The notes below the pieces were generated by a model that worked only from the letters and a program-made list of their open reading frames with translations, was not told the DNA's origin and ran no database searches. This document shows positions 45,854 through 64,000 of a stretch of DNA of 64,000 bases, in pieces. Source of the stretch: an uncultured Actinomycetes bacterium (lineage in GTDB: Bacteria > Actinomycetota > Actinomycetes > Mycobacteriales > Jatrophihabitantaceae); contig CAVTEA010000016.1 of NCBI GenBank assembly GCA_963733615.1, positions 10,186-74,185 on the forward strand. Direction: 5' to 3'. Every line of letters starts with the position of its first letter. The stretch's first letter is position 1. A program made the translations under genes and the position numbers.

Positions 45854-47287
45854 CGTCGTCCGTTGTCGGCAACGGCATGGCGGGCGCCCGCTTGGTGCAG
45901 GAGCTGCGCGGCGCGGGACGGCGACCGCGCCGAGATCACCGTCGATCGGCGCCGAGCCGGCGGCGCGTACAACCGGATGCTGCTGTCGCAACGTGCTGGC
46001 CGGCACAGCCCGAGCGCGACGACATCGAGCTGGCCAGCGAGGACTGGTACGCGCGCCACGACGTGACGCTGCTGGCCGGCGTCCGCGGCCATCAGCGATC
46101 GACCGCGCGGCGCGCACGGTGCCGTACTCGACGACGGCCGCGACGTCGCCGTACAGACGTGCTCGTGCTCGCCACCGGCAGCACGCGCGGTCGCTGCCGC
46201 CGATCGCGGGGCTGTCGACGACGGGCGGCGCGCACGTCGCAGTCCTTCCGCACCCTGGACGACTGCGCGGCCATCGTCGAGCGCGCGGCGTGCGCCGCCC
46301 GCGCGGTGGTGCTCGGCGGCGGGCTGCTCGGCCTCGAGGCGGCCCGCGGGCTGGCCGGCCGCGGGCTTGCCGGTGACCGTGGTGCAGCGCGGCCGGCAGC
46401 TGATGGAGCGCCAGCTCGACGCGGGCGCCGGCGAGTGCTCGAGCCGCACCCTGCGCGAGCTCGGCGTCGAGGTGCTGACCGGCGTCGTCGCACGACGGCG
46501 GTGCGGTCGAGACCGGCGTGGCGCCTGGACGACGGCCGGCACGTGGCCGGCGACTGCTGGTGCTGTGCCTGCGGGGTGCGCCCCGACGTCGACCTCGCCC
46601 GCGACGCCGGGCTCGCCGTCGACCGCGGCGTCGTCGTCGACGACCAGCTGCGCAGCGTCAGCGACCCGGCGCATCTATCGCGATCGGCGAGTGCGCCGAG
46701 CACGCGGGCAGGTGTACGGGCTGGTCGCCCCGGCCTGGGAGCAGGCCCGTGTCGCCGGCCGACGTGCATCACCGGCCGTAGCCGCCGGCGCTACGCGGAC
46801 TCGGCATCGGTCACCCGGCTCAAGGCGACCGGCATCGAGCTGGCCGCCATGGGCGAGACGGACGCCGCCGACGCCGACGACTGTAGAAATCGTGACCTTC
46901 GTCGACGCCGCGCGCGGCATCTACCAGAAGCTGGTGCGTCCGCGACGAGCGGCTGGTCGGGGCGATCCTGCTCGGCGACACCCGCGCCGCCGGCACGGTC
47001 ACCCAGCTCTTCGACCGCGGCGCGTCGCTGCCCGGCGACCGGGCCGCGCTGCTGCTCGGCCGGCGCGACAGCGCCGCGGCCGAGCGCCGAGTCGCCCGAC
47101 CGCGCATCCCGGACGGGCGACCGTCTGCCAGTGCAACGGCGTGACGAAGGCGCGATCTGCGCCGCCTGGCAGGCCGGCGCCCGCGACGTCGCCGGCGTCG
47201 CCGAGCGCGACCCGCGCGACCACCGGCTGCGGCACCTGCCGCGACGCGGTCGGCGGCATCTGCTCGACTGGCTCGCGCGCGCGCTGA
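45850..47287 (+). pseudogene. NirB-like FAD/NAD(P)H pyridine-nucleotide-disulfide oxidoreductase with a BFD-like [2Fe-2S] tail, heavily frameshifted
   Basis: The ATG at 45850 overlaps the upstream stop (ATGA). Pieces in several frames are [75 protein letters not shown] and TTGCGTCRDAV. Confidence 0.65.
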
Positions 47288-47327
47288 TCCGCGCCGCGAT
47301 GAGCCCGCGTTGCCGAGGCCTGCCTGA

Positions 47328-49885
47328 GTGCAGAGCGAGCTGCGTCGTCGTCGGCAACGGCATGGTCGGCCAGCGGCTCGTCGAGGCGCTGCGCGACCGC
47401 GACACCGCGGCACCGTGGCGGATCACCGTGCTGGCCGAGGAGAGCCGCGCCGCGCCTACGACCGGGTCGCGCTGTCGTCGCTACTTCGACGGCGTCACGC
47501 GCGGACGACCTCGATCTCGTCGCGCGACGGCTGCTACGACAGGCCGCTACGCGCTGTACCTCGACGAGGCGGTCGCTGCGCATCGACCGGGACGGCCCGG
47601 GCCGTCACGACCGGACGCGGGCGTACGGATCGGCTACGACGCGCTGGTGCTGGCCACCGGCTCGTACCCGTTCGTCCCGCCGGTGCCCGGCCACGACCTG
47701 CCGGGCTGCTTCGTCTACCGCACCCTCGACGACCTCGACGCGATCCGGGCGGCCGCGGCGGCGGCCGCAGCGCGCACCGGGCGGCGGGCCGGCCTGGTCG
47801 TCGGCGGCGGGCTGCTCGGCCTCGAGGCGGCGCGCGCGCTGCGGCTGCTGGGCCTGTCCCCGCACGTCGTCGAGCTCGCGCCGCGGCTGATGCCGCTGCA
47901 GGTGGACGAGGGCGGCGGGCAGCTGCTGCGCCGAGCTGATCGAGGAGCTCGACGTCACCGTGCACTGCGGCACGTCGGTCGGCCGGCATCGAGCCGCGAC
48001 GGCGACCGGCTGCTGGCCACCCTGGCCAACGGCACCGAGCTCGACCTCGACCTGGTGGTGTTCTCCGCCGGCGTGCGCCCCCGCGACGAGCTCGCCCGCG
48101 ACGGCCGGACTGGCGGTCGGCGACGCGCGGCGGCGTCGTCGTCGACGACGCGTGCCGGACCGCCGACGAGCACATCTACGCGATCGGCGAGTGCGCCTGC
48201 ATCGACGGCCGCGTGTACGGCCTGGTCGGCCCGGGCTACGCGATGGCCGAGGTGGTCGCCGACCGGCTGCTCGGCGGCGCCGGCGACGTTCGCCGGCGCC
48301 GACACCGTCCACCAAGCTCAAGCTGCTCGGCGTCGACGTCGCGAGCTTCGGCGACGCGCTCGCGACCACCGAGGGCGCGCTCGAGGTCACGCTCAACGAC
48401 CCGGTCGCGCGGCAGCTACGCGAAGCTCGTCGTGTCCGACGACGCGACGACGCTGCTCGGCGGCATCCTGGTCGGCGACGCGCTCGCGGTACGCGACGCT
48501 GCGCCCGCTGGTCGGCCGGCCGCTGCCGGGCGATCCGGTCGCGATGATCGCGCCGTGCCGGCGCGGCGAGTCGGCGTCGGCGCGCTGCCCGACGACGCGC
48601 AGGTCTGCTCGTGCAACGCCGTCACGCAAGGGCGACGATCTGCGCGGCGATCGCCGAGCACGGGCCTGACCGACGTCGCCGAGCGTCAAGGCCTGCACCA
48701 GGGCCGGCACCGGCTGCGGCTCGTGCGTGCCGCTGCTCAAGACGCTGCTGGCCGAGAGCGGCGTCGCGACGAGCACGGCGCTGTGCGAGCACTTCGCGCA
48801 TACCCGGGCCGCAGCTGTTCGACATCGTCCGGGTACCGAGCGATCACGCACGTTCACCGAGCTCGTCGAGCGGCACGGCACCGGGCGCGGCTGCGACATC
48901 TGCAAGCCGGCCGTCGCCTCGATCCTGGCCAGCCTGGGCAGCGGCCACATCCTCGACGGCGAGCAGGCGGCGCTGCAGGACACCAACGACCACTTCCTGG
49001 CCAACCTGCAGCGCAACGGCACGCTACTCGGTCGTGCCGCGCATCCCGGGCGGCGAGATCACGCCGGAGAAGCTGCATCGTGATCGGCGAGGTCGCCCGC
49101 GACTTCGGCCTCTACACGAAGATCACCGGCGGGCAGCGCATCGACCTGTTCGGCGCCCGGGTCGAGCAGCTGCCCGCGATCTGGCGGCGGCTCGTCGACG
49201 CCGGCTTCGAGTCCGGCCACGCCTACGGCAAGGCGCTGCGCACGGTGAAGTCCTGCGTCGGCTCGACCTGGTGCCGCTACGGCGTGCAGGACTCGGTCGG
49301 CGCTCGCCATCGACGCTCGAGCTGCGCTACCGCGGCCTGCGCGCGCCGCACAAGATCAAGGCCGGCGGTCTCCGGCTGCGCGCGCGAGTGCGCCGAGGCC
49401 CAGAGCAAGGACGTCGGCGTGATCGCCACCGAGAACGGCTGGAACCTCTACGTCGGCGGCAACGGCGGCTTCCGGCCGCGGCACGCCGACCTGCTGCTGC
49501 ACCGACGTCGACACCGACGACGCTGGTCCGCACCATCGACCGGTTCCTGATGTTCTACATCCGCACCGCCGACCGGCTGCAGCGCACGGCGCCGTGGATC
49601 GAGTCGCTTCGGAGCGGCGGGCTGGCTCGACTACCTGCGGGCGGTGATCGTCGACGACGCGCTCGGCATCTGCGCCGAGCTCGACGCGGCGATGGCCGAG
49701 CACGTCGGCGGCTACGCGACGAGTGGGCCGGCGTGCTGGACGACCCGCAGCGGCTGGCGCCGGTTCGTCTCGTTCGTCAACGCCCCGGACACGCCCGGAC
49801 CCGAGCATCACGCTTCGTCAGCGAACGGGGCCAGCCGCGGCCCGCCCTGCCGCTGGCGGCTGGTGCCGATGACCGCCGGCCGTGA
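47328..49885 (+). pseudogene. nirB: NAD(P)H-dependent assimilatory nitrite reductase large subunit, heavily frameshifted
   Basis: Pieces in several frames are [144 protein letters not shown] and GWNLYVGGNGGFRPRHADLL. Confidence 0.8.
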
Positions 49886-50239
49886 CGACGCGACCGATCG
49901 ACGTGGGTGGCCGCGTGCCCGATCGACGCGGATGCCAGCCCGAACGCGGCGTCGCGGCGCTGGTCGACGGGCGAGCAGGTGCGCTCTGTTCCGTACCTAT
50001 GACGGGCACGCTGTACGCGCTCGGACAACCTGGACCCGTTCAGCGGTGCGTACGTGCTCTCCCGCGGCATCGTCGGCACCCGCGGCGACGTGCCGACGGT
50101 CGCATCCCCGCTGCACAAGCAGGCATTCGACCTGCGCACCGGCGTCTGCCTGGACGAGGACACCGCGTCAGCCGTTGCCGACGCACCCGGTGCGGGTGCG
50201 CCGGACGGCCGAGGTCGAGGTCCGAGCGTGCGGCACTGA
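49882..50239 (+). pseudogene. nirD: Nitrite reductase small subunit (Rieske-like NirD), frameshifted
   Basis: The GTG at 49882 overlaps the nirB stop (GTGA). Pieces are PERGVAALVDG, GTLYAL and VLSRGIVGTRGDVPTVASPLHKQAFDLRTGVCLDEDT (ORF 50054..50239), in different frames. Confidence 0.75.
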
Positions 50240-50242
50240 GCC

Positions 50243-51447
50243 GGCGATCGGAGCCGCTGGCCGGCTACACCGTCGGCATCACCGCGGCCCGGCGCCGCGA
50301 GGAGCTCGGGGCGGCGCTGGAGCGGCGCGGCGCCAAGGTCGTGTACGCGCCCGGCGATCCGCATCGTCCCGCTCGCCGACGACACCGACTGCTGGCCGCC
50401 ACCGAGCGCTGCCTGGCCGCGCCGCTCGACATCGTCGTCGCCACCACCGGGATCGGCTTCCGCGGCTGGATGGAGGCGGCCGACGCCTGGGGCCTGGCCG
50501 ACGCCGCTGTTCGAGCGCCTCGACGCGGCCACGCTGCTGGCCCGCGGGCCCAAGGCGCGCGGGGCCGTGCGGGCGGCCGGGCTGCGCGAGGCGTGGTCGC
50601 CGGAGTCCGAGTCGTGCAGCGAGGTGCTCGAGCACCTGCTGCGCCAGCCGACCTGACCGGCCGGCGCGTCGCGGTGCAACTGCACGGCGAGCCGCTGCCC
50701 GATCTCGTCGCAATCCCTCGCGGCGGCCGGCGCCGACGTGATCGAGGTGCCCGTCTACCGCTGGGTGCCGCCGGATGACATGACGCCGCTGCGCCGGCTG
50801 GTCGGCGCCGTCGCCACCCGGCAGGTCGACGCGTCGCGTTCACCAGCGCCCCGGCCGCGGCGAGCTTCCTGCACGCGGCCGACGACGAGCTCGGGCACGC
50901 CGTCGACGCGCTGCGCTCGGGCGTCGCTGGCCTGCTGCGTCGGGCCGGTGACGGCCGCGCCGCTGCAGCGCGCCGACGTCCCGGTCATCGCAGCCGGACC
51001 GGCCGCGCCTCGGGGCGCTGGTCCGCGAGATCGTCGAGCAGGTGCCGGCCCGCTGCGGACTGGTGCTGCCGGCGGCCGGCCACACGCTCGGCGTGCGCGG
51101 CCACGCGGTCGTGGTCGACGGCACGATGGTGCCGCTCGGCGCGACGGCAATGTCGCTGCTGCGCGATGCTCGCCCACCATCCCGGACAGGTCGTGTCGCG
51201 GGCGCAACTGCTCGCCGCGCTGCCGAACGACGGGCAGGACGAGCACGCCGTCGAGGTCGCCATCGGGCGGCTGCGCACCGCGCTCGGCGACCCGCGCATC
51301 GTGCAGACAGTCGTCAAGCGCGGCTATCGGCTGGCCTATGAGCCCGAGCGCGCTGGATCCTGCACCACCGACGAGGTGAACGTCGAAGCGGCGCCGGCGT
51401 ACGCCGTGTCCGCACGGCATACCTGGATTTGCCGAGCGACCAGCTGA
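50243..51447 (+). pseudogene. Uroporphyrinogen-III synthase (HemD-like) fused to a C-terminal OmpR-type winged-helix domain, frameshifted
   Basis: Pieces are LAGYTVGITAARRREELGAALERRGAKVVYAP, LDIVVATTGIGFRGWMEAADAWGL, IEVPVYRWVPPDD and the C-terminal QVVSRAQLLAALPNDGQDEHAVEVAIGRLRTALGDPRIVQTVVKRGYRLA, read in at least 4 frames. Confidence 0.7.
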
Positions 51448-51497
51448 GCGGCCGGCCGAGCGACCAGATCAGCAGGCGACGGGAGTATCCGACCAAC

Positions 51498-53128
51498 GGC
51501 TCTGGCGCACTTTCGGTGGTTGGTCGGGCGTGTCGGCGGCCGGCGCGGGATCTCTTGTTGATCACGATCGTGCGTGATCGATGCGGATGTGGTGGTCGGG
51601 ACGGTCTTTTCGGGGTTGACGGCGTTGACGATCTACGGGATCGAGGACGCTGGCGAGGTGATTGTGGTGCACGCTCGCACCCGTGGCGGCGCGGTGAAAT
51701 GCCCGAGCTGCGGCACCCTCACCGGGCACGTCCACGCGTTCGGTGAGCGGGTGCCGGCGGACGTGCCTGTCGACGGACGGCGGGTGCTGGTCCGTGTTCG
51801 GGTGCGACGGATGCGCTGCCGGGCCGAGGACTGCGCGAGACAGACGTTCCGCGAACAGGTTCCTGGTGTGCTGGAGCGCTATCAACGCCGGACAGTGCGG
51901 CTGAATGCGCAACTGCGCAGCGTGGTGCGGGAGCTGGCCGGCCGCGCCGCGGCCCGGCTACTGCCGGTGATGGGCATCGTCGCGGGCAAGGACACGGCGG
52001 TGCGTGCACTGCTGGGCATCGCGCTACCTGAGCGTCCGGTGCCGCGGGTGTTGGGGATCGATGACTTCGCGCTGCGGCGCAGCCGCCAGTACGCCACGGT
52101 GGTGATCGACGCCGAAACCGGCGAGCGGATCGATGTGCTGCCCGGTCGCGGCGCCGGCGTGGTCAGCGACTGGCTACGTTCCCATCCCGGCGTCGAGGTC
52201 GTGTGCCGCGACGGGTCGAGCACCTATGCCCAAGCCGTCCGCGACGCGTTACCGAGCGCGGTGCAGGTGGCCGACCGCTGGCACCTATGGCACGGTCTCG
52301 CCGAGGCTGCGCTGAAGGAAGTCGCGGCCCACTCAGCCTGCTGGGCCGGAGCAACCGGCGTCCAGAACGGGCCACTGGCCCGCACAACGTCCGAACGCTG
52401 GCATCAGGTGCACGACCTGCTCAAGCAAGGTCACGGGCTGCTGGAGTGCTCGCGGCGGCTGAATCTGTCGCTGAACACTGTCAAGCGGTATGCCCGAGCC
52501 AGCGAACCGACTCGGATGCAGCGCGTGCCGAAATACCGCCCCACGTTGGTCGATCCCTACCGCGATCACCTCCGACAGCGGCGCGCTGAGCAGCCTGGCG
52601 TGCCCGTGACGCAGCTGCTAGCCGAGATCCGTCAGCTTGGTTACCCGGGCAGCGCGAACCTGCTGACCCGCTACCTCAACCAGGGCCGCGCCGAGGACAA
52701 GCAACAACATCTCTCACCCCGGCGCGCGGCTCGCCTGCTGCTGACCAGACCGGCCAATCTCACCGACCGGCAACGCGAGCGTCTCCACCAAATCGCCGAC
52801 GCGTGTCCCGAAATCGCCGCTGTCCGCAACCTTGTCGCCGCGTTCGCCGCGTTGCTCACACCCGAGCAGGACAATCCAGCCAGGCTGCAGGCGTGGATGG
52901 ACGCGGCACGCAGCAGCGACCTGCCGCACGTGCATTCCTTCGTCCGCGGGCTCACCCAGGACATCGAGGCCGTCAACGCCGCGCTGAGAACGCCGCACCA
53001 CAACGGCAGAACCGAGGGCGTCAACACCAGAACGAAAATGATCAAACGACAGATGTACGGCCGCGCCGGCTTCGAGCTTCTTCGACACCGAATCCTTCTC
53101 GGCTAACCACCGAAAGTGCGCCAGAGCC
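51498..53128 (+). mobile_element. ISL3-family insertion sequence, copy A
   Basis: The terminal IRs are GGCTCTGGCGCACTTTCGGTGGTT (51498) and AACCACCGAAAGTGCGCCAGAGCC (ending at 53128). They enclose an intact 510-aa transposase ORF. Confidence 0.9.
51574..53106 (+). CDS. ISL3-family transposase (copy A)
   Basis: Intact 510-aa ORF with N-terminal zinc-ribbon CPSCG...H, DDFALRRSRQYATVVIDAETGERIDVL, VADRWHLWHGL and the C-terminal HHNGRTEGVNTRTKMIKRQMYGRAGFELLRHRILL, typical of ISL3. Confidence 0.9.
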   Translation: MIDADVVVGTVFSGLTALTIYGIEDAGEVIVVHARTRGGAVKCPSCGTLTGHVHAFGERVPADVPVDGRRVLVRVRVRRMRCRAEDCARQTFREQVPGVLERYQRRTVRLNAQLRSVVRELAGRAAARLLPVMGIVAGKDTAVRALLGIALPERPVPRVLGIDDFALRRSRQYATVVIDAETGERIDVLPGRGAGVVSDWLRSHPGVEVVCRDGSSTYAQAVRDALPSAVQVADRWHLWHGLAEAALKEVAAHSACWAGATGVQNGPLARTTSERWHQVHDLLKQGHGLLECSRRLNLSLNTVKRYARASEPTRMQRVPKYRPTLVDPYRDHLRQRRAEQPGVPVTQLLAEIRQLGYPGSANLLTRYLNQGRAEDKQQHLSPRRAARLLLTRPANLTDRQRERLHQIADACPEIAAVRNLVAAFAALLTPEQDNPARLQAWMDAARSSDLPHVHSFVRGLTQDIEAVNAALRTPHHNGRTEGVNTRTKMIKRQMYGRAGFELLRHRILLG

Positions 53129-53164
53129 GCTAACTTGACACGCTCTCGACTGGGCACCCGGGCG

Positions 53165-53637
53165 CGGGCACTGGCTACTGGCCCGCCGCTCGATCAGCGA
53201 CCCAACCGAGATCGCCTACTACATCTGCTACGGGCCCCGCCGATCCAGTCTGGTGGACCTGGCCTGGATCGCCGGGTCCCGCTGGCGGGTCGAAGAGTGC
53301 TTCCAACAGGCCAAGAACGAGGCCGGTCTGGACCACTACCAAGTGCGCAGCTGGCGGGCCTGGTATGCCCACATCACCCTGTCCATGCTCGCCCTGGCCT
53401 GGCTTAGCGGCACCAAAGCCCTTGCCGCAAAAGGGGAATCGGCGTCCACGACCAAGACATGATCAACTACACGTTACCGGAGATCCGCCGCCTGCTCGTG
53501 CACCTCATCCTGCGACACACCCACCGACCCGACCACGTCTGGTCCTGGTCACGCTGGCGACGACGACGCCAACACCAAGCCCGCGCCAGCCACTACCGAC
53601 GACGCGGCTACCCACCCGAAGTGCCGTTGCAGTATTA
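53165..53637 (+). pseudogene. IS701-family (IS4-like DDE) transposase, C-terminal fragment with a frameshift near 53455, truncated by ISL3 copy A
   Basis: Pieces are RRSISDPTEIAYYICYGPRRSSLVDLAWIAGSRWRVEECFQQAKNEAGLDHYQVRSWRAWYAHITLSMLALAWL and, in another frame, INYTLPEIRRLLVHLI...WSWSRWRRRRQHQARASHYRRRG. Confidence 0.7.
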
Positions 53638-53646
53638 GAGCTCGTT

Positions 53647-53930
53647 TCAGAATGAGCGGTTGAGTTGTTGGTGGCAGATCAGGGCGCAGGCGAGTTGGAG
53701 TAGGCCGAGGTGGATGTCGGCGCGTCGTTCGTATCGGGGGCGGAGTCGTTTGAACTGATGGAGCCAGGCGAAGCCGCGTTCGACAACCCAGCGGACCTTG
53801 CCCAGTCCAGAACCGTGCGCGGTACCGCGGCGGGCGATGCGTGGCCGGATGCCGCGTGTGTCGAGCAGTCGGCGGTACTTGTCGAAGTCGTAGCCACGGT
53901 CGGCGAACAGCTCACGGGGCATCTCAGCCA
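53647..53930 (-). pseudogene. IS5-family (IS427-like) transposase, C-terminal fragment
   Basis: ORF 53647..54015 contains ADRGYDFDKYRRLLDTRGIRPRIARRGTAHGSGLGKVRWVVERGFAWLHQFKRLRPRYERRADIHLGLLQLACALICHQQL. This is the conserved tail of IS5-family DDE transposases, and the N-terminal part is absent. Confidence 0.75.
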
Positions 53931-54041
53931 CGTCTCGGTCGGGTGCGTAGCGAACTGGTTGAACTCGGCGATCTTTGTGGAAGCCTGGCACCATCGCTGG
54001 AATGTGCTGCGTCATTCGACGCCTCTCATCGCGTCATATGT

Positions 54042-54593
54042 ATGAGTCCAGGGGAAGGCCAAAGGGTGGAATGGGACGTGAGTTTTGTTGAGTTCGTCCG
54101 TGATCAGGCGGACGAACTGTATCGGGCGTCGTACCTTTTGGTCGGTGAGCCGTCCGGGGCAGCCGATCTGGTCCAGGAAACGCTGACTCGGCTGTATCCC
54201 AAGTGGGATCGGGTGTTGGGGGCCGATTCTGCCCTCGCGTACGTCCGCAAGGCGGTCGTGAATCAGTATTTGTCCGGGGCGCGACGATTGCGATCGAGGG
54301 AAGTTCTGCTGGCCGATGTGCCGGACACGGGCGTGGATGACGAGGTCGCGTCACGCTTCATGGATCAAGCCGTGCTTGATCGTCCGCTGGCCACCCTATC
54401 GCCGAAGCAGCGAACGGCGGTGGTACTTCGCTACTTCCACGACCTGTCCGATCACGAGTCAGCAGTTGTGATGGGCTGTTCTGTGCCGACGTTCCGTAGC
54501 CATCTTCGACGCGGCTTGGCGGCGCTTAGGAGGCAACTCACGACGAGCGAGACCCCGCCCGTAGACGGTCGTAATCTGAGGAGCCCACGATGA
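54042..54593 (+). CDS. ECF-type RNA polymerase sigma factor (actinobacterial SigE/SigM-like subgroup)
   Basis: The sigma-2 region is FVEFVRDQADELYRASYLLVGEPSGAADLVQETLTRLYPKWDRV. The sigma-4 HTH is LSPKQRTAVVLRYFHDLSDHESAVVMGCSVPTFRSHLRRGLAALRRQL. ATG at 54042 (alternative GTG at 54066). The region is visibly lower in G+C than the host. Confidence 0.85.
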   Translation: MSPGEGQRVEWDVSFVEFVRDQADELYRASYLLVGEPSGAADLVQETLTRLYPKWDRVLGADSALAYVRKAVVNQYLSGARRLRSREVLLADVPDTGVDDEVASRFMDQAVLDRPLATLSPKQRTAVVLRYFHDLSDHESAVVMGCSVPTFRSHLRRGLAALRRQLTTSETPPVDGRNLRSPR

Positions 54594-55246
54594 GCACCGA
54601 GTTCGAGCAACACCTGCGTGACCGACTGCGCCGCGCTGCCGAGACAGCGCCAAGCCAACCGGGACTACTTCGCCAAATTGAAGCCGGGACCGTCAGCGAC
54701 GCGTTGCCGGGGCTCCCGCATCGAACACGACTCCGCAGATGGCTGCCTCTGCTGGCTAGCGCGGCGATCGCCCTCACCGCCGCAACTGCCATCGCGCTTG
54801 CATCGGTGGCAAATCACCGCTCCGCGCCACCGGGGGTGGGAGCGTCGTTGTCATGCGGGGTGCTGCCGCAGGCGTGTCGGCTTTCGGCGCCACCGGCCGG
54901 CCACGCGAGTGATCAAGAGGCGCACCCATTACCGAAGGGCGCTACCTTGCTCACACGCAGTCAAGCCGAGGCACATGCTGTCGGAGCGAACCACATTACC
55001 TCGCGCACGTTCAGCGCCCTGATGACTGGTGCGCAAGCCGACGCTCGGTTCGAAGTCGGCCGCGCAAGCAGCTATGACGAGACACGGCCGGTCTGGGTTG
55101 TCACCGTCCACGCGTCTGTCGGGACCGACGGTGGACCAGGGGCACGTCCTACGAGAAAGGACGTGTATTCCATAGTTCTTGACGCTCACACCGGACGCAT
55201 AACAGACGCGTGCACGGGGTGCGCATGGCTAACTGCTAGCTTGTGA
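54590..55246 (+). CDS. Membrane-anchored sigma-factor partner (putative anti-sigma-like protein) with a conserved extracytoplasmic C-terminal domain
   Basis: ATGA-coupled to the sigma gene. The N-terminus EQHLRDRLRRAAE is followed by a single TM (WLPLLASAAIALTAATAIALASV). The C-terminal block RPVWVVTVHASVGTDGGP...KDVYSIVLDAHTGRITDACTGCAWLT is shared with 55386..56000. Confidence 0.65.
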   Translation: MSTEFEQHLRDRLRRAAETAPSQPGLLRQIEAGTVSDALPGLPHRTRLRRWLPLLASAAIALTAATAIALASVANHRSAPPGVGASLSCGVLPQACRLSAPPAGHASDQEAHPLPKGATLLTRSQAEAHAVGANHITSRTFSALMTGAQADARFEVGRASSYDETRPVWVVTVHASVGTDGGPGARPTRKDVYSIVLDAHTGRITDACTGCAWLTASL

Positions 55247-55385
55247 CGGCCGTCCGATCTCTCAGCACGTTGTATCGTGTCCCGCGTCTACAACACAGCA
55301 TCACTTTACGGCTGACGCTTCAGGGGCCTCGACAAATACTAATAGCGAATGGTCCAGCCGTTTGAAGTCTGCTCGGGCTGTTCGT

Positions 55386-56000
55386 TCACGAGCCCTGCGT
55401 TAGCCAGGCGCACCCGATGCACATGTCGGTCACTCTGCCACTGGCAGCATCGATCACGACCGAGAATGCATCCTTGGCTTTACCTGCAGCCGCTGGCCCG
55501 CCGTCAGTAGCCACGTGCGCGTGCACGGCGACGACCCAGACCGGTCGGCTCGAGTCATAAGACAGCGGACGCCCGATGCTGAATTTCGCGTCCGCTTGCA
55601 CACCGGACATCATTGCGCTGTATGTTGGAGACGTAATCGTCGAAGAACCAATTGCGACCGCCTCTGCACTGGCGCGGGCCATGAGTGCCGCGCCTTGTGG
55701 AATTGGGGCGGTTTCGGTCTCGCTCCCGAAGTCCTGCTTGTACGCGGCCGAATTGCAAATCTGGTGAGCTTGCATGCACGCCTTCAACGCAGGATCGTTT
55801 AGGCCTGTGTAGCCGGGTGGCACTGATGGCGAGTTCACACCTGAAGGTATCGGTCCCTCAGTCGGCGCGGCGCCAGGCGGTGGAGTGGTGTCGGTGCCGT
55901 GTGCCGAGGTCTGGCTGAGCAAGACAGCCGTGATGACTACTGCTACCGCACCGACAGTGATCTGCAGCGGTCGCTTGCGAAGTGCCTCAGCTATCTTCAT
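55386..56000 (-). CDS. Membrane-anchored paralog of the sigma partner's C-terminal domain (alternative GTG start at 56021)
   Basis: Single TM (LQITVGAVAVVITAVLL) and a Pro-rich linker. The C-terminal block is RPVWVVAVHAHVATDGGP...KDAFSVVIDAASGRVTDMCIGCAWLT. The ATG at 56000 shares one nt with the TGA of the upstream gene (TGATG). Confidence 0.65.
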   Translation of the reverse strand: MKIAEALRKRPLQITVGAVAVVITAVLLSQTSAHGTDTTPPPGAAPTEGPIPSGVNSPSVPPGYTGLNDPALKACMQAHQICNSAAYKQDFGSETETAPIPQGAALMARASAEAVAIGSSTITSPTYSAMMSGVQADAKFSIGRPLSYDSSRPVWVVAVHAHVATDGGPAAAGKAKDAFSVVIDAASGRVTDMCIGCAWLTQGS

Positions 56001-56752
56001 CAGTTCTTCCTCGCCTTCCACTCCGTCATGTACGGAGTCCAGCTGAAGCAGTACCCGTTAGGCCAGTTTGGTGTAACGCCATATTGGTTGCACGGGTAAT
56101 CGACCCAATCGACATGGTAGCCAAAAGGACCCCAAGCGCCCGATGTTGTTTCCGTCTGCAGCGATGTCCAGTCGCCTTGCGACGTGTGGGTCACTGGAGT
56201 CGGTTGATTCTGATTGTCCTCAAGGCCTACCTGAAATTGGAACCCTTGCCACCCGTTATTGGTTGGTTGGTTCGTTGACATTCCGATGTAATTTGCATCA
56301 AGGAATACGTCCCAATGATTGGTGCTTGATGCACGCTCAGTCGTGTAGGTGTGATGCGCAAGATCGATGCTGGCGTTCCCGAAGGTGTGGAGATGTTCGT
56401 TCCCAGCGGCATCAAAGTCCGCCCAGAACCATGTGTAGCCGGTATTGGTTCCCGTCACGTCTACGCCGTTTCGGAGGCCGAACTCTACCCACTGTGCGAG
56501 GTCTGCACGGGTGTAGAACCATTGCTCGGCATTCACGTGATAGGTGTTGACGTACGGAGCGCTGATATTCAGCGCGATATTATCGAATTCACTGTAACCG
56601 CCGGCGTATCGGTCGCTATGGGACCCGTCCAGGCATTCCGTCGCGCTGGGATTACCTCCGTGCGCGCAATCAGCTGACGCCGCCGGCACCCCAACGATCG
56701 CGGTGCCTATCAACGCCACACCACTTGCAATTAAGGCTGCGGTGAATCGCAC
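56000..56752 (-). CDS. Secreted hypothetical protein (250 aa), low-GC, Trp/Asn/Thr-rich, family unknown
   Basis: The signal peptide is MRFTAALIASGVALIGTAIVGVPAASA. The mature part has paired Cys near both ends (DCAHGG..ATEC; YPCNQ..GYC). My hand count on 200 nt gives about 52% G+C. It is translationally coupled to the downstream gene. Confidence 0.7.
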   Translation of the reverse strand: MRFTAALIASGVALIGTAIVGVPAASADCAHGGNPSATECLDGSHSDRYAGGYSEFDNIALNISAPYVNTYHVNAEQWFYTRADLAQWVEFGLRNGVDVTGTNTGYTWFWADFDAAGNEHLHTFGNASIDLAHHTYTTERASSTNHWDVFLDANYIGMSTNQPTNNGWQGFQFQVGLEDNQNQPTPVTHTSQGDWTSLQTETTSGAWGPFGYHVDWVDYPCNQYGVTPNWPNGYCFSWTPYMTEWKARKN

Positions 56753-56836
56753 CCTCCCACCCCCCTTTACCGTTGCGACGAGCTGCTAGAGGTTGTCCCG
56801 CTCCCCGTTGAACTTCGGTGGCAGTCCTCATGATCG

Positions 56837-57490
56837 TCAGGCGGCGATCACGTTGTCATCTTGACGCACGGCACTGACAGTTTGCGCGGCGACATGCTCA
56901 TCGAGTGCGACGCGGAGCGCGGGCAGGTGGAGGTGGCCGTTGACGCGGCGGAACTGCTTGCTGGCTTCGATCATCCCGGCGGCGCACCAGCGCAGCGCCA
57001 TGTTGCCGTTCTGCCAGTTCTTCACGTTCGTGGAGTGGTCGCGGGCGATCGAGATCATCGACTCGATGCTGTTCGTGCTGCGCAGCGTTCGGGCCAACGT
57101 GGGTGACACACCCAGCCGCAGCACGGTCAGCGTCTCGGCCAGTCCTTCGCGCAGTGACGCGGCGGCGCCGGGATGGGTGCGTTCGAGTTCCTTCGCGAGC
57201 GCTTCGAGCTGTGCCTCGGCCACAATCGCGGACTCGGCGTGGTAGGCCTGCCGCATCCGCTTGGTTACGGTCGAGGCGAGATGGTCGGGCAGCTTGTCGG
57301 CCAAGTTTCTGATCTTGTGAAGTTGGCAGCGGCCGATCACCGGATGATCGAACACTCGCACGACTGCGGCCCGCAGCGCTTTGCCGCCGTCGATGCCGAC
57401 GAAGATCGGCCGGGTGGTGCCCAGGCCGCGGTCGCGCAGCCCGGTCAGCAGATCGGTGACCACGCTGGTGTTCTCGGTCGGGGGTGTCAA
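56837..57490 (-). pseudogene. IS256-family transposase, C-terminal fragment, truncated by ISL3 copy B
   Basis: Contains RPIFVGIDGGKALRAAVVRVFDHPVIGRCQLHKIRNLADKLP...RSTNSIESMISIARDHSTNVKNWQNGNMALRWCAAGM, the distal half of mutator-type transposases. The ORF begins at the ISL3 boundary. Confidence 0.75.
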
Positions 57491-57496
57491 CTGGCT

Positions 57497-59141
57497 GGCT
57501 CTGGCTCACTTTCGGTGGTGACCGGTGTTGGGGCTAGGCGAGCAGGATGCGGTGGCGTAGGAGGTCGAAGCTGGCACGTCCGTACATCTGTCGTTTCAGC
57601 ATTTTCGTGCGGGTGTTGACGCCCTCGGTTCTGCCGTTGTGGTGCGGCATAGTCAGCGCCGCGACGACAGCATCGCGGTCTTGCTCGATCCCGCGGACGA
57701 AGGAGTGCACGTGCGGTAGGTCGATGCTGCGCGCCGCGTGTGTCCACTCCTGCAGCCTGGCTGGATTGCTCTGGCCGGGCGTGAGCAGGGCCGCGAACGC
57801 GTCGACAAGACCGCGCAGAGCGGTGATCTCGGGACACGCACCGGCGAGCTGATCGAGACGTTCGCGTTGCCGGTCGGTGAGATTGGCCGGCCTGGTCAGC
57901 AGTAGCCGTGCAGCCCGCCGGGGCGAGAGGTGCTGCTGCTTGTCCTCAGCTCGGCCCTGGTTGAGATAGCGGGTCAGCAGGTTCGCGCTGCCCTGGTAGC
58001 CGAGCTCGCGGATCTCGCGAAGCAGCTGGGTCACTGGCACACCAGGCTGTTCAGCGCGTCGAGACCGAAGGTGATCACGGTAGGGATCCACGAGCGTGGG
58101 GCGGTATTTCGGCACGCGCTGCAGGCGGGTCGGTTCGCTGGCGCGGGCGTAGCGTTTGACGGTGTTCAGGGACAGGTTCAACCGCCGGGAGCACTCGAGC
58201 AGTCCGAGACCTTGCTTGAGCAGGCCATGCACCTGATGCCAGCGTTCGGTCGTGGTGCGGGCCAGCGGCCCGTCCTGGACCCCGGTTGCTCCGGCCCAGC
58301 AGGCTGAGTGGGCCGCGACCTCTTTGGCCGCTGCTTCGGCCAAGCCGTGCCACAGATGCCACCGGTCCGCGACCTGCACTACAGCGGGAACGGCGTCGCG
58401 TACGGCTTGGGCGTAGGTGCTCGACCCGTCGCGGCACACGATTTCGACTCCAGGATGGCTACGCAGCCAGTCGCTGACAACACCGGCGCCGCGGTCGGGC
58501 AGCACATCGATCCGAACACCGGTTTCGGCGTCGATCAACACCGTGGCGTACTGGCGGCTGCGCCGCAACGCGAAGTCGTCGATCCCCAACACTCGCGGCA
58601 CCGGCCGGTCGGGCAGCACGATGCCTAGCAGAGCGCGCAGGGCGGTGTCCTTGCCTGCGGCGATTCCCATCACGGGTAGCAGCCGAGCCGACGCGCGACC
58701 GGCAAGCTCCCTGACGACACCGCGCAGTTGCTCGCTCAATCGCACCGTGCGCCGCTGATAACGCTCGAGCACACCAGGGACTTGCTCGCGGAACGTCTGC
58801 CGCACGCAGCCCTGCGCGCGGCAGCGCATTCGTCGTACTCGGACACGCACCAGCACGCGTCGCCCATCGATCGGGACGTCTGCTGGCACCCGCTCATGGA
58901 AGGCATGCACGCGCCCCGTTAGGGTCCCGCAGGTCGGGCATCGCACCGCACCGCCACGGGTGCAAGCGCGAACCACGATCACCTCGCCGGCGTCCTCGAT
59001 CTCATCGATCGTCAACGCCGCCAACCCCGAAAAGACCGTCCCGATCAGGACTTCCGCATCGATCATGGCCGATCTTGATCAAGCCGACCTCCCGCGCCGG
59101 CCGACGACACGCCCGGTCACCACCGAAAGTGAGCCAGAGCC
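57497..59141 (-). mobile_element. ISL3-family insertion sequence, copy B (inverted relative to copy A)
   Basis: The terminal IRs are GGCTCTGGCTCACTTTCGGTGGTG (57497) and CACCACCGAAAGTGAGCCAGAGCC (ending at 59141). They differ from copy A at one or two positions. Confidence 0.9.
57534..59066 (-). CDS. ISL3-family transposase (copy B)
   Basis: Intact 510-aa ORF collinear with copy A. There are scattered substitutions throughout (roughly nine in ten residues identical by eye). Confidence 0.9.
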   Translation of the reverse strand: MIDAEVLIGTVFSGLAALTIDEIEDAGEVIVVRACTRGGAVRCPTCGTLTGRVHAFHERVPADVPIDGRRVLVRVRVRRMRCRAQGCVRQTFREQVPGVLERYQRRTVRLSEQLRGVVRELAGRASARLLPVMGIAAGKDTALRALLGIVLPDRPVPRVLGIDDFALRRSRQYATVLIDAETGVRIDVLPDRGAGVVSDWLRSHPGVEIVCRDGSSTYAQAVRDAVPAVVQVADRWHLWHGLAEAAAKEVAAHSACWAGATGVQDGPLARTTTERWHQVHGLLKQGLGLLECSRRLNLSLNTVKRYARASEPTRLQRVPKYRPTLVDPYRDHLRSRRAEQPGVPVTQLLREIRELGYQGSANLLTRYLNQGRAEDKQQHLSPRRAARLLLTRPANLTDRQRERLDQLAGACPEITALRGLVDAFAALLTPGQSNPARLQEWTHAARSIDLPHVHSFVRGIEQDRDAVVAALTMPHHNGRTEGVNTRTKMLKRQMYGRASFDLLRHRILLA

Positions 59142-59181
59142 CGACCAACGGTGTACTTGGCCGGTGCCAGCGGCCCCAGGC

Positions 59182-62550: not shown

Positions 62551-62934
62551 TCAGAACATCGTGTGGGAGTTCGCCGCCTCGTCCGGCACCGGCTGCAGCA
62601 CGTCCCAGTGCTCGACGATCTTGCCGTCCTCGAACCGGAAGATGTCGATGATCGCCGCGCCCGACGTTCCCGGCACGCGCACGCCGTGCACGTGGCCGAC
62701 CACGAGGTCGCCCTCGGCGACGAGCCGCTTGACCTGCATGGTGAGGCCGGGGAACGAGTCGCGCAGGTAGGTGAGGAAGGCTTCGAGCCCGTCCACCCCG
62801 TCGGCGATCTGCGGGTTGTGCTGGATGTAGCCCGGACCGATCAGGCTCCGCGCCGCCGCGAAGTCCTTCTCTACGATCGCGTACCGGTAGAACGCCAGGA
62901 CGGTCTGCTTGTTCTGCTCGATGGCGTCGGTCAT
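62551..62934 (-). CDS. SnoaL-like / NTF2-family protein (polyketide-cyclase-like fold)
   Basis: ATG at 62934 within chimeric ORF 62551..63906. The sequence is NKQTVLAFYRYAIVEKDFAAARSLIGPGYIQHNP...DLVVGHVHG...IDIFRFEDGKIVEHWDVLQ. Confidence 0.8.
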   Translation of the reverse strand: MTDAIEQNKQTVLAFYRYAIVEKDFAAARSLIGPGYIQHNPQIADGVDGLEAFLTYLRDSFPGLTMQVKRLVAEGDLVVGHVHGVRVPGTSGAAIIDIFRFEDGKIVEHWDVLQPVPDEAANSHTMF

Positions 62935-62984
62935 CTGATTCTCCTGTTCTCGGTGGTTGCTGGTCATTTCTCGGTGGTCGCCGG

Positions 62985-64000
62985 TCAGGCGACGGAGGGG
63001 AGTTCTCGGCTGCGCTTGCGTATGGGCAGGACGAGGGTGACGAGGACCGCCGCGGACACGACGAAGCCCATGGCCGACCAGCTCGCCACGTTGAACCCGT
63101 GCACGACGCCGACGACCGGCGCCGCGTGGTGGGAGGTGAGGTACGAGGCCGCCGCCTTGCTCGCGATCGTGCTGAGCAGTGCGGTGCCCAGCGAGGCGCC
63201 GACCTGCTGGGATGTCATGACCATCGCGCCGGCGACGGACGTGTCTGCGCCGGCATCCAGCGTGGCCGTGCTGTTCGCCGTCACGAGCACCCACCCGGTG
63301 CCGAGGCCGATCAGCAGGAACACGGGCATGATCCGCAGCCAGTAGCCGCTGTCGACGCCGGTCGTCGCGAGCAGCACGAGGCCGCCCGAGATGGCCAGCA
63401 GCCCCGGGGGCAGCAGCGCAACCGACGACCCGCGGCTCAGCAACGGCGTCACGAGTCGGACGCCCGCGATCAGGCCGACGGTCAAGGGCAGGAAGGCGAG
63501 ACCGGCCTTCACCGGAGAGTAGTGGCGCACGTCCTGCAGGTAGAAGGTCAGGAAGAACAACGCGCCGAACATGCCGACCGCGAGGCTGAGCACGGCCAGG
63601 TACGACCCGGCACGACGACGGTCGAGGACCACGCGCAGCGGCAGCAACGGCGCCGCCACGCGAGTCTGCGACGAGACGAACAGGGCGAGCAGGACGACGC
63701 CGGTGACGAGCGCGCCGACGGTCAGGTGGGCGCTCCACCCGTCGGTCTCGGACTTGGCGAACCCGAACACGAGCGCCATCAGCCCTGTCGTGGCCAAGAC
63801 GGCGCCGAGCAGGTCGATAGGCCGGCGGACGGCGGGTACCGAACGGACGGAGTAGATCGCTCCCGCGCCCGCCATCGCTGCGATCGGCAGGTTCACGAAC
63901 ATGCACCAGCGCCAGTCGAGGTACTGGGTGAGGACACCGCCGAGCAGGACACCGATCCCGGACGAACTGCCCATCGCCGTGCCGTAGATGCCGAAGGCCT
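62985..64000 (-). CDS. MFS transporter (DHA2-like), C-terminal part; the 5' end lies beyond the window
   Basis: ORF 62985..63974 remains open to the window edge. It is polytopic. WRWCMFVNLPIA and the following TMS pattern match the central and C-terminal part of 14-TMS MFS exporters. Confidence 0.85.
   Translation of the reverse strand, partial: AFGIYGTAMGSSSGIGVLLGGVLTQYLDWRWCMFVNLPIAAMAGAGAIYSVRSVPAVRRPIDLLGAVLATTGLMALVFGFAKSETDGWSAHLTVGALVTGVVLLALFVSSQTRVAAPLLPLRVVLDRRRAGSYLAVLSLAVGMFGALFFLTFYLQDVRHYSPVKAGLAFLPLTVGLIAGVRLVTPLLSRGSSVALLPPGLLAISGGLVLLATTGVDSGYWLRIMPVFLLIGLGTGWVLVTANSTATLDAGADTSVAGAMVMTSQQVGASLGTALLSTIASKAAASYLTSHHAAPVVGVVHGFNVASWSAMGFVVSAAVLVTLVLPIRKRSRELPSVA

What the first reader, a model, noticed from the sequence alone, without database searches (positions are those of the whole stretch)
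54042..56752. Low-GC mobile cargo: ECF sigma factor, two membrane proteins sharing a novel C-terminal domain, and a secreted protein of unknown fold
The cargo of the composite transposon is compositionally foreign. My hand counts give about 52% G+C on 200 nt of the secreted-protein gene and about 58-60% by eye for the sigma gene, versus about 67% for the host.

It has two convergent units:
- An ECF sigma factor, ATGA-coupled to a single-pass membrane protein.
- A 250-aa secreted Trp/Asn-rich protein, coupled (TGATG) to a second single-pass membrane protein.

The two membrane proteins share a ~100-aa extracytoplasmic domain ending RPVWVV-VHA-V-TDGGP...KD--S-V-DA--GR-TD-C-GCAWLT.

- The ...DA-TG... 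ending is reminiscent of PepSY-type inhibitor/propeptide domains. This is only a resemblance.
- The sigma partner lacks the classical zinc anti-sigma motif (HxxxCxxC).

A self-contained sigma/sensor/secreted-effector module riding on a transposon could rewire envelope-related gene expression in a new host. I do not recognise it as a described system.
Basis: partly seen in the sequence, partly recalled or inferred. Interest (0 to 1): 0.65.

Follow-up and report, generated by a model that had tools for sequence, protein, structure and literature searches.

The report
Mobile secreted peptidase, partner, sigma switch
A small transposon-borne gene block encodes a rare, previously unclassified secreted enzyme with the fold and catalytic residues of plant neprosin-type glutamic proteases, a membrane-anchored partner that almost always accompanies it, and a sigma/anti-sigma pair whose sensor is a copy of that partner, which suggests, but does not prove, a switch that senses the protease.

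Summary
Four intact genes lie at 54042-56752 as two convergent, translationally coupled pairs. The cargo is 60% G+C against 68% for the window. It sits among IS debris inside a 7.6-kb ISL3 composite transposon with an 8-bp target duplication.

The interpretation needs revising.
- **Secreted protein (SEC):** its fold is not unknown. The AlphaFold model (pLDDT 88) matches neprosin and eqolisin glutamic peptidases best. The family keeps neprosin's catalytic positions (E76/W78/E90/E178 correspond to Q173/W175/E188/E297). It has no prodomain and no Pfam match. Only 59 cluster representatives exist among 1.84 billion proteins.
- **Conserved unit:** it is the pair, not the four-gene set. SEC lies directly upstream of a single-pass membrane protein (MP) in 10 of 11 loci, often beside integrases or IS elements.
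- **MP domain:** it matches no family. PepSY likeness is only sub-threshold.
- **Sigma pair:** the ECF sigma (SigE family) plus MP1 occurs next to SEC-MP only here. MP1 is an old paralogue of MP2 (51% identity).

Best reading: a secreted glutamic peptidase with a membrane-tethered inhibitor or trans-prodomain, plus an anti-sigma factor that borrowed that binding domain. Biochemistry is untested, and the native promoters appear displaced by IS fragments.

The parts
51490..51497 (.). Left copy of the 8-bp target-site duplication CGACCAAC
   Evidence: Identical to 59142-59149, directly outside the outer inverted repeats.
51498..53128 (+). ISL3-family insertion sequence, left arm of the composite transposon (transposase 51574-53106)
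   Evidence: NF033550 transpos_ISL3, E 3e-105. Terminal inverted repeats at 51498-51520 and 53106-53128.
53647..54015 (-). IS5-family transposase fragment (C-terminal third only); it ends 27 nt before the sigma ATG
   Evidence: NF033580 profile positions 168-257 of 258; Pfam DDE_Tnp_1.
54042..54593 (+). ECF sigma factor, SigE family (183 aa)
   Evidence: TIGR02983 149 bits against a cutoff of 141.6; Sigma70_r2 and r4_2.
54590..55246 (+). MP1: probable anti-sigma factor (218 aa). About 50 aa cytoplasmic, a TM segment at about 51-73, and an extracytoplasmic MP domain
   Evidence: ATGA overlap with sigma. 50% identity to MP2 over 151 aa, E 2e-41. Keeps all family-invariant residues. Its role as an anti-sigma factor is inferred.
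55386..55997 (-). MP2: membrane-anchored partner of the secreted enzyme (204 aa, P0002). N-terminal TM, Cys-x6-Cys helical stalk, C-terminal alpha/beta domain ending CxGCAW
   Evidence: TGATG coupling to SEC. Homologues lie directly downstream of SEC homologues in 10 of 11 loci. AF2 gives the C-terminal domain pLDDT above 90.
56000..56752 (-). SEC: Sec-secreted enzyme of the neprosin/eqolisin glutamic-peptidase fold (250 aa). Signal peptide about 1-27; proposed catalytic residues E90 and E178 with E76 and W78
   Evidence: AF2 pLDDT 88.4. Foldseek top hits are neprosin 7zvc/7zvb/9qr8. hhalign is collinear with neprosin's catalytic residues. Conservation: W78 40/40, E90 39/40, E178 38/40.
56837..57490 (-). 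IS256-family transposase fragment (C-terminal half); it ends 85 nt upstream of the SEC start
   Evidence: NF033543 profile positions 164-337 of 338; Pfam Transposase_mut.
57497..59141 (-). ISL3-family insertion sequence, right arm (transposase 57534-59066); 84% identical to the left arm and inverted
   Evidence: NF033550, E 2e-101. Perfect 29-nt terminal inverted repeats (I4). Arm-to-arm identity from I1.
59142..59149 (.). Right copy of the 8-bp target-site duplication CGACCAAC

Best explanation
**Core unit (fold and pairing shown; function inferred).**
- The functional core is a mobile two-gene operon.
- SEC is exported by a Sec signal peptide. It folds as the two-sheet beta-sandwich of glutamic peptidases.
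- It carries a neprosin-like active site: E90 and E178 as the acid pair, with E76 and W78 in the places of neprosin Q173 and W175.
- It lacks the N-terminal prodomain that keeps neprosin and eqolisins latent.
- MP2 is made in fixed stoichiometry by translational coupling. It is a single-pass membrane protein with a compact extracytoplasmic alpha/beta domain that is weakly PepSY-like.
- The MP domain has invariant Arg151, Trp154 and Asp183, and a usually present C-terminal CxGC.
- Inferred role: this domain binds the peptidase at the producer's surface. It would act as a prodomain supplied in trans, an inhibitor or an immunity factor, with the invariant Arg possibly plugging the di-glutamate site as Lys118 does in pro-neprosin.

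**Sigma pair (sigma identity shown; the rest inferred).**
- The second pair is a SigE-family ECF sigma factor and its likely anti-sigma factor, MP1.
- MP1 has a short cytoplasmic segment (too short for a four-helix ZAS domain and without Cys), one TM helix, and an old paralogue of the MP domain.
- Inferred logic: MP1 senses the same ligand as MP2, namely the peptidase or a related foreign one, by binding it or being cut by it, and then frees the sigma factor.

**Mobility (shown).** The block was delivered as cargo of a 7.6-kb ISL3 composite transposon.
For: **SEC fold and active site**
- AF2 gives pLDDT 88.4 and pTM 0.84.
- The best Foldseek hits are neprosin (E 6e-8, TMq 0.62). The eqolisins 2ifr and 1s2b give TMt 0.61.
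- The hhalign alignment to neprosin is collinear: E76=Q173, W78=W175, E90=E188, G92=G190, E178=E297.
- These residues are shown to be catalytic or essential in neprosin (PMC9343461).
- The same positions are the most conserved in the 40-sequence family alignment.

**SEC-MP pairing**
- A SEC gene lies immediately upstream of an MP gene, often with a 4-nt overlap, in the window, L001, L003 (Nocardioides marmorisolisilvae), L004, L006, L007, L008, L010, L012 and L015.
- Possible fusion proteins exist: P0057 and P0022.

**MP domain**
- It is confidently folded. PepSY is the only recurrent Pfam hint.

**Sigma and MP1**
- The sigma factor passes TIGR02983.
- MP1 overlaps the sigma gene by ATGA and retains every invariant MP residue.
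- MP1 and MP2 are sister sequences but only 51% identical. The duplication is therefore old and the adjacency has persisted.

**Transposon**
- Inverted repeats and the 8-bp duplication.
Against: **Peptidase assignment**
- Sequence-level significance to neprosin is weak: hhalign E 0.0085, probability 5%. There is no Pfam PF03080 or PF01828 hit even at E 1.
- GH16 jelly-rolls also score well in Foldseek E-value, though with lower TM.
- I could not inspect model coordinates, so I could not confirm that E90 and E178 face each other.

**MP domain**
- It has no significant structural match (best E 0.07). The PepSY hits are sub-threshold.
- An inhibitor role rests on analogy alone. The fusion evidence is weak (E 0.003-0.007 over short stretches).

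**Sigma link**
- No other SEC-MP locus carries a sigma factor.
- MP1's cytoplasmic segment matches no anti-sigma family.
- No ECF-type promoter motif lies upstream of either unit. IS fragments abut both 5' ends, so the present regulation may be broken or hijacked.
Confidence: 0.5

Rival explanations
1. SEC is not a protease. It is a carbohydrate-active or carbohydrate-binding jelly-roll protein (GH16-like glucanase, lyase or lectin) acting on cell-wall or environmental glycans. MP is its immunity or anchoring partner.
For: - Foldseek returns many GH16 lichenases, CBM66, PL7 and LamG domains at E 1e-7 to 3e-4.
- SEC is rich in Trp, Tyr and Asn, as sugar-binding clefts are.
- Two conserved glutamates about 90-100 residues apart are also typical of retaining glycosidases.
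- One MP locus lies beside a penicillin-binding transpeptidase.
Against: - TM-scores to GH16 are 0.3-0.46, against 0.62 for neprosin and 0.5-0.6 for eqolisins.
- The GH16 ExDxxE motif is absent (direct reading).
- Four neprosin active-site positions, including the Trp that stabilises the tetrahedral intermediate, align collinearly and are the most conserved columns.
Confidence: 0.2
2. MP is not an inhibitor. It is a folding or secretion helper, or a surface anchor that holds active SEC on the cell. Alternatively MP is itself the physiological substrate. MP1 would then signal by being cleaved rather than by binding.
For: - Strict synteny and translational coupling fit any obligate partner equally well.
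- SEC lacks a prodomain, and prodomains in other protease families double as foldases (general knowledge).
- MP has a long, low-confidence Pro/Ala-rich stalk that would present the domain away from the membrane.
Against: Nothing here separates these roles. The sub-threshold PepSY likeness and the invariant Arg lean towards active-site occlusion, but only by analogy.
Confidence: 0.25
3. The four-gene adjacency has no function as a set. IS-mediated shuffling placed a sigma/anti-sigma pair beside a SEC-MP cassette, promoters were lost, and the block is inert or decaying cargo.
For: - The IS5 and IS256 fragments lie 27 and 85 nt from the two 5' ends.
- There is no ECF-type promoter motif.
- The sigma factor is not found beside any other SEC-MP pair.
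- All four proteins are singletons at 90% identity.
Against: - All four ORFs are intact with coupled starts.
- MP1 and MP2 are each other's closest relatives yet only 51% identical, which implies long co-residence rather than a recent accident.
- MP1 keeps every invariant residue of the family.
- Sampling is very thin: about 17 MP sequences in all.
Confidence: 0.25

Closest known systems
Neprosin (Nepenthes glutamic prolyl endopeptidase; Pfam PF03080/DUF239; PDB 7ZU8, 7ZVB, 9QR8)
   Same: - Best structural match.
- Same beta-sandwich fold.
- Collinear equivalents of W175, E188 and E297, with Glu in place of Q173.
- Secreted.
   Different: - About 11% identity and no PF03080 HMM hit.
- No N-terminal Neprosin_AP prodomain.
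- Bacterial (actinobacterial-type) rather than plant.
- Always paired with a membrane protein.
- Specificity and pH optimum unknown.
Eqolisins, MEROPS G1 (scytalidoglutamic peptidase 2IFR/1S2B; Pfam PF01828)
   Same: Same fold (TMt 0.61), with the general-base Glu on the equivalent strand.
   Different: - G1 uses a Gln/Glu dyad; SEC has Glu at the first position, as neprosin does.
- No Pfam hit.
- No propeptide.
PepSY domains (PF03413): M4 protease propeptides, YpeB, YpmB
   Same: - A small helix-plus-sheet extracytoplasmic domain ending in a ...vDA.tG.v... strand.
- Proposed in the literature to restrain secreted peptidases near the cell.
- It is the only recurrent Pfam hint.
   Different: - Sub-threshold only (best E 0.031, 2 of 16 members).
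- No significant Foldseek match.
- Extra invariant Arg/Trp, a Cys-x6-Cys stalk and a C-terminal CxGC.
- The partner would be a glutamic peptidase, not a metallopeptidase.
Protease-inhibitor operons (for example serralysin AprA with Inh/AprI; staphopain with staphostatin)
   Same: A secreted protease is co-transcribed with a dedicated protein that protects the producer (general knowledge).
   Different: Unrelated folds and catalytic class. Here the partner is membrane-tethered, and inhibition is inferred, not shown.
SigV-RsiV (the anti-sigma factor acts as receptor for lysozyme)
   Same: As a concept: the anti-sigma factor's extracytoplasmic domain directly binds a hydrolytic enzyme, which triggers sigma release (general knowledge).
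   Different: No homology. The ligand for MP1 is unproven, and the sigma factor belongs to the actinobacterial SigE family (TIGR02983).

Membership tests
Neprosin family (Pfam PF03080) | Sequence match to the family HMM above the gathering score | tested here: not met
   No Pfam hit for SEC or any of 40 relatives at E up to 1. No PDB sequence hit with the family profile.
Neprosin family (Pfam PF03080) | Two-sheet beta-sandwich catalytic domain | tested here: met
   AF2 pLDDT 88.4. Foldseek top hits 7zvc, 7zvb and 9qr8 at E 6e-8, TMq 0.61-0.63.
Neprosin family (Pfam PF03080) | Glu/Glu catalytic dyad (E188, E297) with the supporting residues Q173 and W175 | tested here: met
   The collinear hhalign alignment puts E90, E178, E76 and W78 at these positions, conserved in 39/40, 38/40, 32/40 and 40/40 sequences. 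The alignment is statistically weak, and the geometry was not checked on coordinates.
Neprosin family (Pfam PF03080) | N-terminal activation prodomain (Neprosin_AP, PF14365) giving a zymogen | tested here: not met
   The mature SEC begins about 20 residues before the first core strand. No PF14365 hit.
Neprosin family (Pfam PF03080) | Peptidase activity at acidic pH | not testable with these tools
   Needs biochemistry.
Eqolisins (MEROPS G1, PF01828) | Gln/Glu catalytic dyad and a family HMM match | tested here: not met
   No PF01828 hit. The position equivalent to the catalytic Gln is Glu (E90).
Glycoside hydrolase family 16 | Catalytic ExDxxE motif on the inner sheet | tested here: not met
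   The motif is absent from SEC and from the family consensus. TM-scores are only 0.3-0.46.
PepSY domain (PF03413) | HMM match above the gathering score | tested here: inconclusive
   2 of 16 MP proteins hit PepSY below threshold (best E 0.031). No other family recurs.
PepSY domain (PF03413) | Helix packed on a small antiparallel sheet, similar to solved PepSY structures | tested here: inconclusive
   The model has H-E-H-E-E-E with pLDDT above 90. Foldseek found nothing significant; a YpmB model ranks 48th at probability 0.33.
ECF sigma factors, SigE family (TIGR02983) | Score above the curated cutoff, with regions 2 and 4 present | tested here: met
   149.1 bits against a cutoff of 141.55. 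Sigma70_r4_2 E 1e-11; r2 E 5e-5.
Zinc-binding anti-sigma factors (ZAS) | HxxxCxxC motif in the cytoplasmic domain | tested here: not met
   MP1 residues 1-85 contain no cysteine.
Anti-sigma factor (generic) | Co-transcribed with the sigma gene; N-in single-pass topology; binds the sigma factor | tested here: inconclusive
   The ATGA overlap and the topology are seen. No anti-sigma family matches. Binding is not testable here.
Composite transposon | Two IS elements with intact ends bracket the cargo, and one target-site duplication lies at the outer ends | tested here: met
   Inverted repeats I4, I5 and I6. CGACCAAC lies on both outer flanks, and the inner flanks differ. The arms are only 84% identical, so they are related but not sister copies.

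The most novel reading that the evidence does not exclude
A new kind of envelope signalling. An ECF anti-sigma factor uses, as its sensor, a paralogue of a dedicated protease-binding (trans-prodomain or inhibitor) domain. The cell would thereby monitor a secreted prodomain-less glutamic peptidase, its own or a competitor's. The whole peptidase/guard/sensor/sigma set travels on a transposon. This would also establish a new bacterial family of neprosin-like glutamic peptidases regulated in trans by a membrane protein.
Probability: 0.2. Interest if true: 0.75.

Novelty: new variant of a known kind. Interest (0 to 1): 0.55.

Why it matters
- **A rare enzyme class in bacteria.** Glutamic peptidases are the least populated and least studied catalytic class. 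Neprosin-type enzymes are almost entirely plant proteins and are of applied interest for gluten degradation.
- **A new way to control such an enzyme.** A bacterial, prodomain-less relative that always travels with a membrane-tethered partner offers a new sequence family. It may also show a new way of keeping such an enzyme in check.
- **A possible direct test of the PepSY hypothesis.** That hypothesis, dating from 2004, holds that PepSY-like domains restrain peptidases at the cell surface. This system could test it.
- **A possible new signalling mode.** If the anti-sigma paralogue really senses the peptidase, it would be a second example, after RsiV and lysozyme, of an anti-sigma factor acting as receptor for a hydrolytic enzyme.

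Tried and rejected
- **Word-indexed homologue search with SEC.** It found only itself. The exhaustive phmmer search was needed to find the family.
- **Family and structure libraries.** Pfam, NCBIfam and PADLOC scans of the three non-sigma proteins gave nothing. PDB sequence searches with the SEC and MP profiles gave nothing meaningful.
- **Plasmid collection.** tblastn with SEC and MP1 found no match.
- **ECF-type promoter.** A scan for AAC-N16-17-CGT and GGAAC-type motifs found none in the two upstream regions. Hits inside genes occur at background frequency. The sigma-70 and terminator scan was at shuffle level.
- **Foldseek on the MP model.** No significant hit, so neither PepSY nor any other fold could be assigned.
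- **Fusion proteins as Rosetta-stone evidence.** P0057 and P0022 gave only weak hhalign support, so I treat them as suggestive only.
- **Rejected readings.** GH16 membership (no ExDxxE, low TM), a ZAS anti-sigma factor (no Cys), and an anti-phage defence system (no PADLOC hit).
  - I could not superpose coordinates to measure the E90-E178 geometry.
  - I could not classify the sigma factor into a numbered ECF group.
Full report
**1. What is there**

The region 54042-56752 holds four intact ORFs in two convergent pairs.
- A 183-aa sigma factor (54042-54593, +) overlaps by ATGA a 218-aa protein, MP1 (54590-55246, +).
- On the other strand, a 250-aa protein, SEC (56000-56752), overlaps by TGATG a 204-aa protein, MP2 (55386-55997).
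- The sigma factor passes the curated cutoff of NCBIfam TIGR02983, the SigE family (149 bits against 141.6), and has regions 2 and 4.
- MP1, MP2 and SEC match nothing in Pfam, NCBIfam or PADLOC.
- MP1 and MP2 are 50% identical over 151 C-terminal residues (E 2e-41).
- MP1 has about 50 cytoplasmic residues without any cysteine, then a TM helix. It therefore has no zinc anti-sigma motif.
- MP2 has only about 10 residues before its TM helix.
- SEC starts with a typical signal peptide (...PAASA|DC...).

**2. Composition and mobility**

- The window averages 67.8% G+C. The cargo 54016-56836 is 60.4%, SEC is 55.5%, and cargo GC3 is 64-67% against 71-84% in the adjoining genes.
- The block is bounded by an IS5 fragment (53647-54015, ending 27 nt before the sigma ATG) and an IS256 fragment (56837-57490, 85 nt from the SEC start).
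- Outside these lie two ISL3 elements in inverted orientation, each with its own terminal inverted repeats, 84% identical to each other.
- The 8 bp directly outside the two outer ends are identical (CGACCAAC at 51490-51497 and 59142-59149), while the inner flanks differ.
- An 8-bp duplication is what ISL3 elements make. The 7.6-kb unit 51498-59141 therefore inserted as one piece, and the composite-transposon reading is supported.

**3. The secreted protein belongs to a rare family with a glutamic-peptidase fold**

- The word-indexed search found only the protein itself.
- The exhaustive phmmer search found 59 cluster representatives among 1.84 billion.
- In an alignment of 40 of them (A3), the most conserved positions are W78 (40/40), G92 (40/40), E90 (39/40), G176 (39/40), E178 (38/40) and E76 (32/40).
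- AlphaFold2 on this alignment gives an all-beta model with pLDDT 88.4 and pTM 0.84.
- The best Foldseek matches in the PDB are the neprosin structures (7zvc, 7zvb, 7zu8, 9qr8; E 6e-8 to 2e-7, TMq 0.61-0.63).
- Scytalidoglutamic peptidase follows at TMt 0.61. GH16 lichenases have similar E-values but TM of only 0.3-0.46.
- I recovered the neprosin sequence from the PDB search and aligned the family profile to it.
- The local hhalign hit is weak (E 0.0085), but it puts E178 on neprosin E297.
- The extended alignment is collinear and also pairs E76 with Q173, W78 with W175, E90 with E188 and G92 with G190.
- In neprosin, E188 and E297 are the catalytic dyad. Q173 positions E188, and W175 stabilises the tetrahedral intermediate (PMC9343461).
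- SEC thus has the fold and the active-site constellation of a neprosin-type glutamic peptidase.
- It lacks the family's sequence signature (no PF03080 hit) and its N-terminal prodomain.
- The GH16 motif ExDxxE is absent.

**4. The conserved unit is SEC plus MP**

MP homologues are even rarer. I recovered about 17 sequences: 14 from the database searches, the two window copies, and one read from L003.

A SEC homologue lies immediately upstream of the MP gene, usually with overlapping stop and start, wherever the upstream DNA is visible:

| Locus |
|---|
| L001 |
| L003, Nocardioides marmorisolisilvae, beside sucCD |
| L004 |
| L006 |
| L007 |
| L008, 3' end of SEC only |
| L010/L011 |
| L012/L013 |
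| L015, the closest SEC relative |

- Only the most divergent MP (L014, 38% G+C) lacks a SEC neighbour.
- Several loci sit beside integrases, a large serine recombinase or IS remnants, so the pair is itself mobile.
- None of the loci with usable flanks has a sigma factor next to the pair.
- All four window proteins are singletons at 90% identity.
- The only other copy is an identical 3.2-kb contig from a sequencing run (L002).

**5. The MP domain**

- Invariant or nearly invariant positions are C74 and C81 in a helical stalk, R151, W154, V156, D183, A184, and a C-terminal CxGC that a few members have lost.
- The AF2 model is confident only for the C-terminal about 100 residues (pLDDT above 90; helix-strand-helix-strand-strand-strand).
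- Foldseek finds no significant neighbour (best E 0.07).
- Scanning all 16 members against Pfam, PepSY is the only family hit more than once, and it is sub-threshold (2 of 16, E 0.031).
- Two longer proteins look like SEC-MP fusions. P0057 has a C-terminal ...TLTIVVDAATGVVTD..., and P0022 has a TM helix and the Cys stalk. The statistics are weak.

**6. How it most likely works**

- Shown: the fold, the conserved acidic pair, secretion signals, strict synteny and coupling, the paralogy of MP1 and MP2, the sigma family, and the transposon.
- Inferred, SEC and MP2:
  - SEC is an active glutamic peptidase.
  - Because it lacks a prodomain, its coupled membrane partner supplies that function in trans, binding and restraining or maturing it at the producer's surface.
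  - The invariant Arg could occupy the di-glutamate site, as Lys118 does in pro-neprosin.
- Inferred, sigma and MP1:
  - MP1 is the anti-sigma factor of the upstream sigma factor.
  - Because its sensor is an MP paralogue that keeps every invariant residue, it responds to the same ligand.
- MP1 and MP2 are sister sequences but only 51% identical, about as far from each other as from P0003. The duplication is therefore old and the adjacency is unlikely to be a fresh accident.
- Against a working circuit in this host: IS fragments sit almost on both 5' ends, and no ECF-type promoter motif lies upstream of either unit.

**7. Verdict**

- The unknown-fold claim is replaced by a specific assignment.
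- The four-gene module is not seen elsewhere. The two-gene SEC-MP cassette is a real, rare and mobile unit.
- I rate it a new variant of known kinds: a glutamic-peptidase fold, a protease-partner operon and an ECF sigma/anti-sigma pair.
- Interest is moderate to good because the family is undescribed and the proposed sensing logic can be tested directly.

Noticed in passing
window 51574-53106 and 57534-59066: Both ISL3 transposases are long (510 aa). They carry an internal stretch (about residues 281-377) that matches the N-terminal HTH region of IS21-family transposases (E 3e-13 and 7e-14). This suggests an inserted DNA-binding module in this ISL3 subgroup.
   Followed up: no
window 44000-52000: This stretch is markedly G+C-richer (74-79%) than the rest of the window (about 68%). 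It includes a 1364-aa ORF that combines a molybdopterin-binding domain with pyridine-nucleotide disulphide oxidoreductase domains. It may be a separate compositional island next to the transposon insertion site.
   Followed up: no
window 51431-51478: A short 12-nt tandem array (GCCGAGCGACCA-like, overlapping 24-nt copies) lies just left of the transposon's target duplication (D1).
   Followed up: no
window 53130-53646: Between the left ISL3 and the IS5 fragment there is more apparent IS debris. One example is ORF 53253-53462, '...RWRVEECFQQAKNEAGLDHYQVRSW...', which resembles transposase C-termini from memory. It has no Pfam hit at 1e-5.
   Followed up: partly
window 62551-63906 (-): A 451-aa ORF has a C-terminal SnoaL-like domain. 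It could be an ECF sigma factor with a SnoaL extension or an unrelated enzyme. The N-terminal part was not examined.
   Followed up: no
P0061 and P0040: SEC-like domains also occur in much larger proteins. One is a 3977-aa protein with four SEC-like stretches. Another is a 492-aa protein in which a Trp-rich repeat region precedes the SEC domain.
   Followed up: no
L007, L010/L011, L012: SEC-MP cassettes in metagenomic contigs repeatedly sit next to tyrosine integrases, a large serine recombinase, IS66/IS605 genes and an IS256 fragment. The pair seems to be habitual cargo of mobile elements.
   Followed up: partly
L003 5084-6447 (Nocardioides marmorisolisilvae NZ_RJSG01000002.1): This was the only hit when the MP-domain alignment was scanned across 185,579 species-representative genomes. 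It is a chromosomal SEC-MP pair just downstream of sucC-sucD, close to an M23-peptidase-like gene, with no IS or sigma factor nearby.
   Followed up: partly
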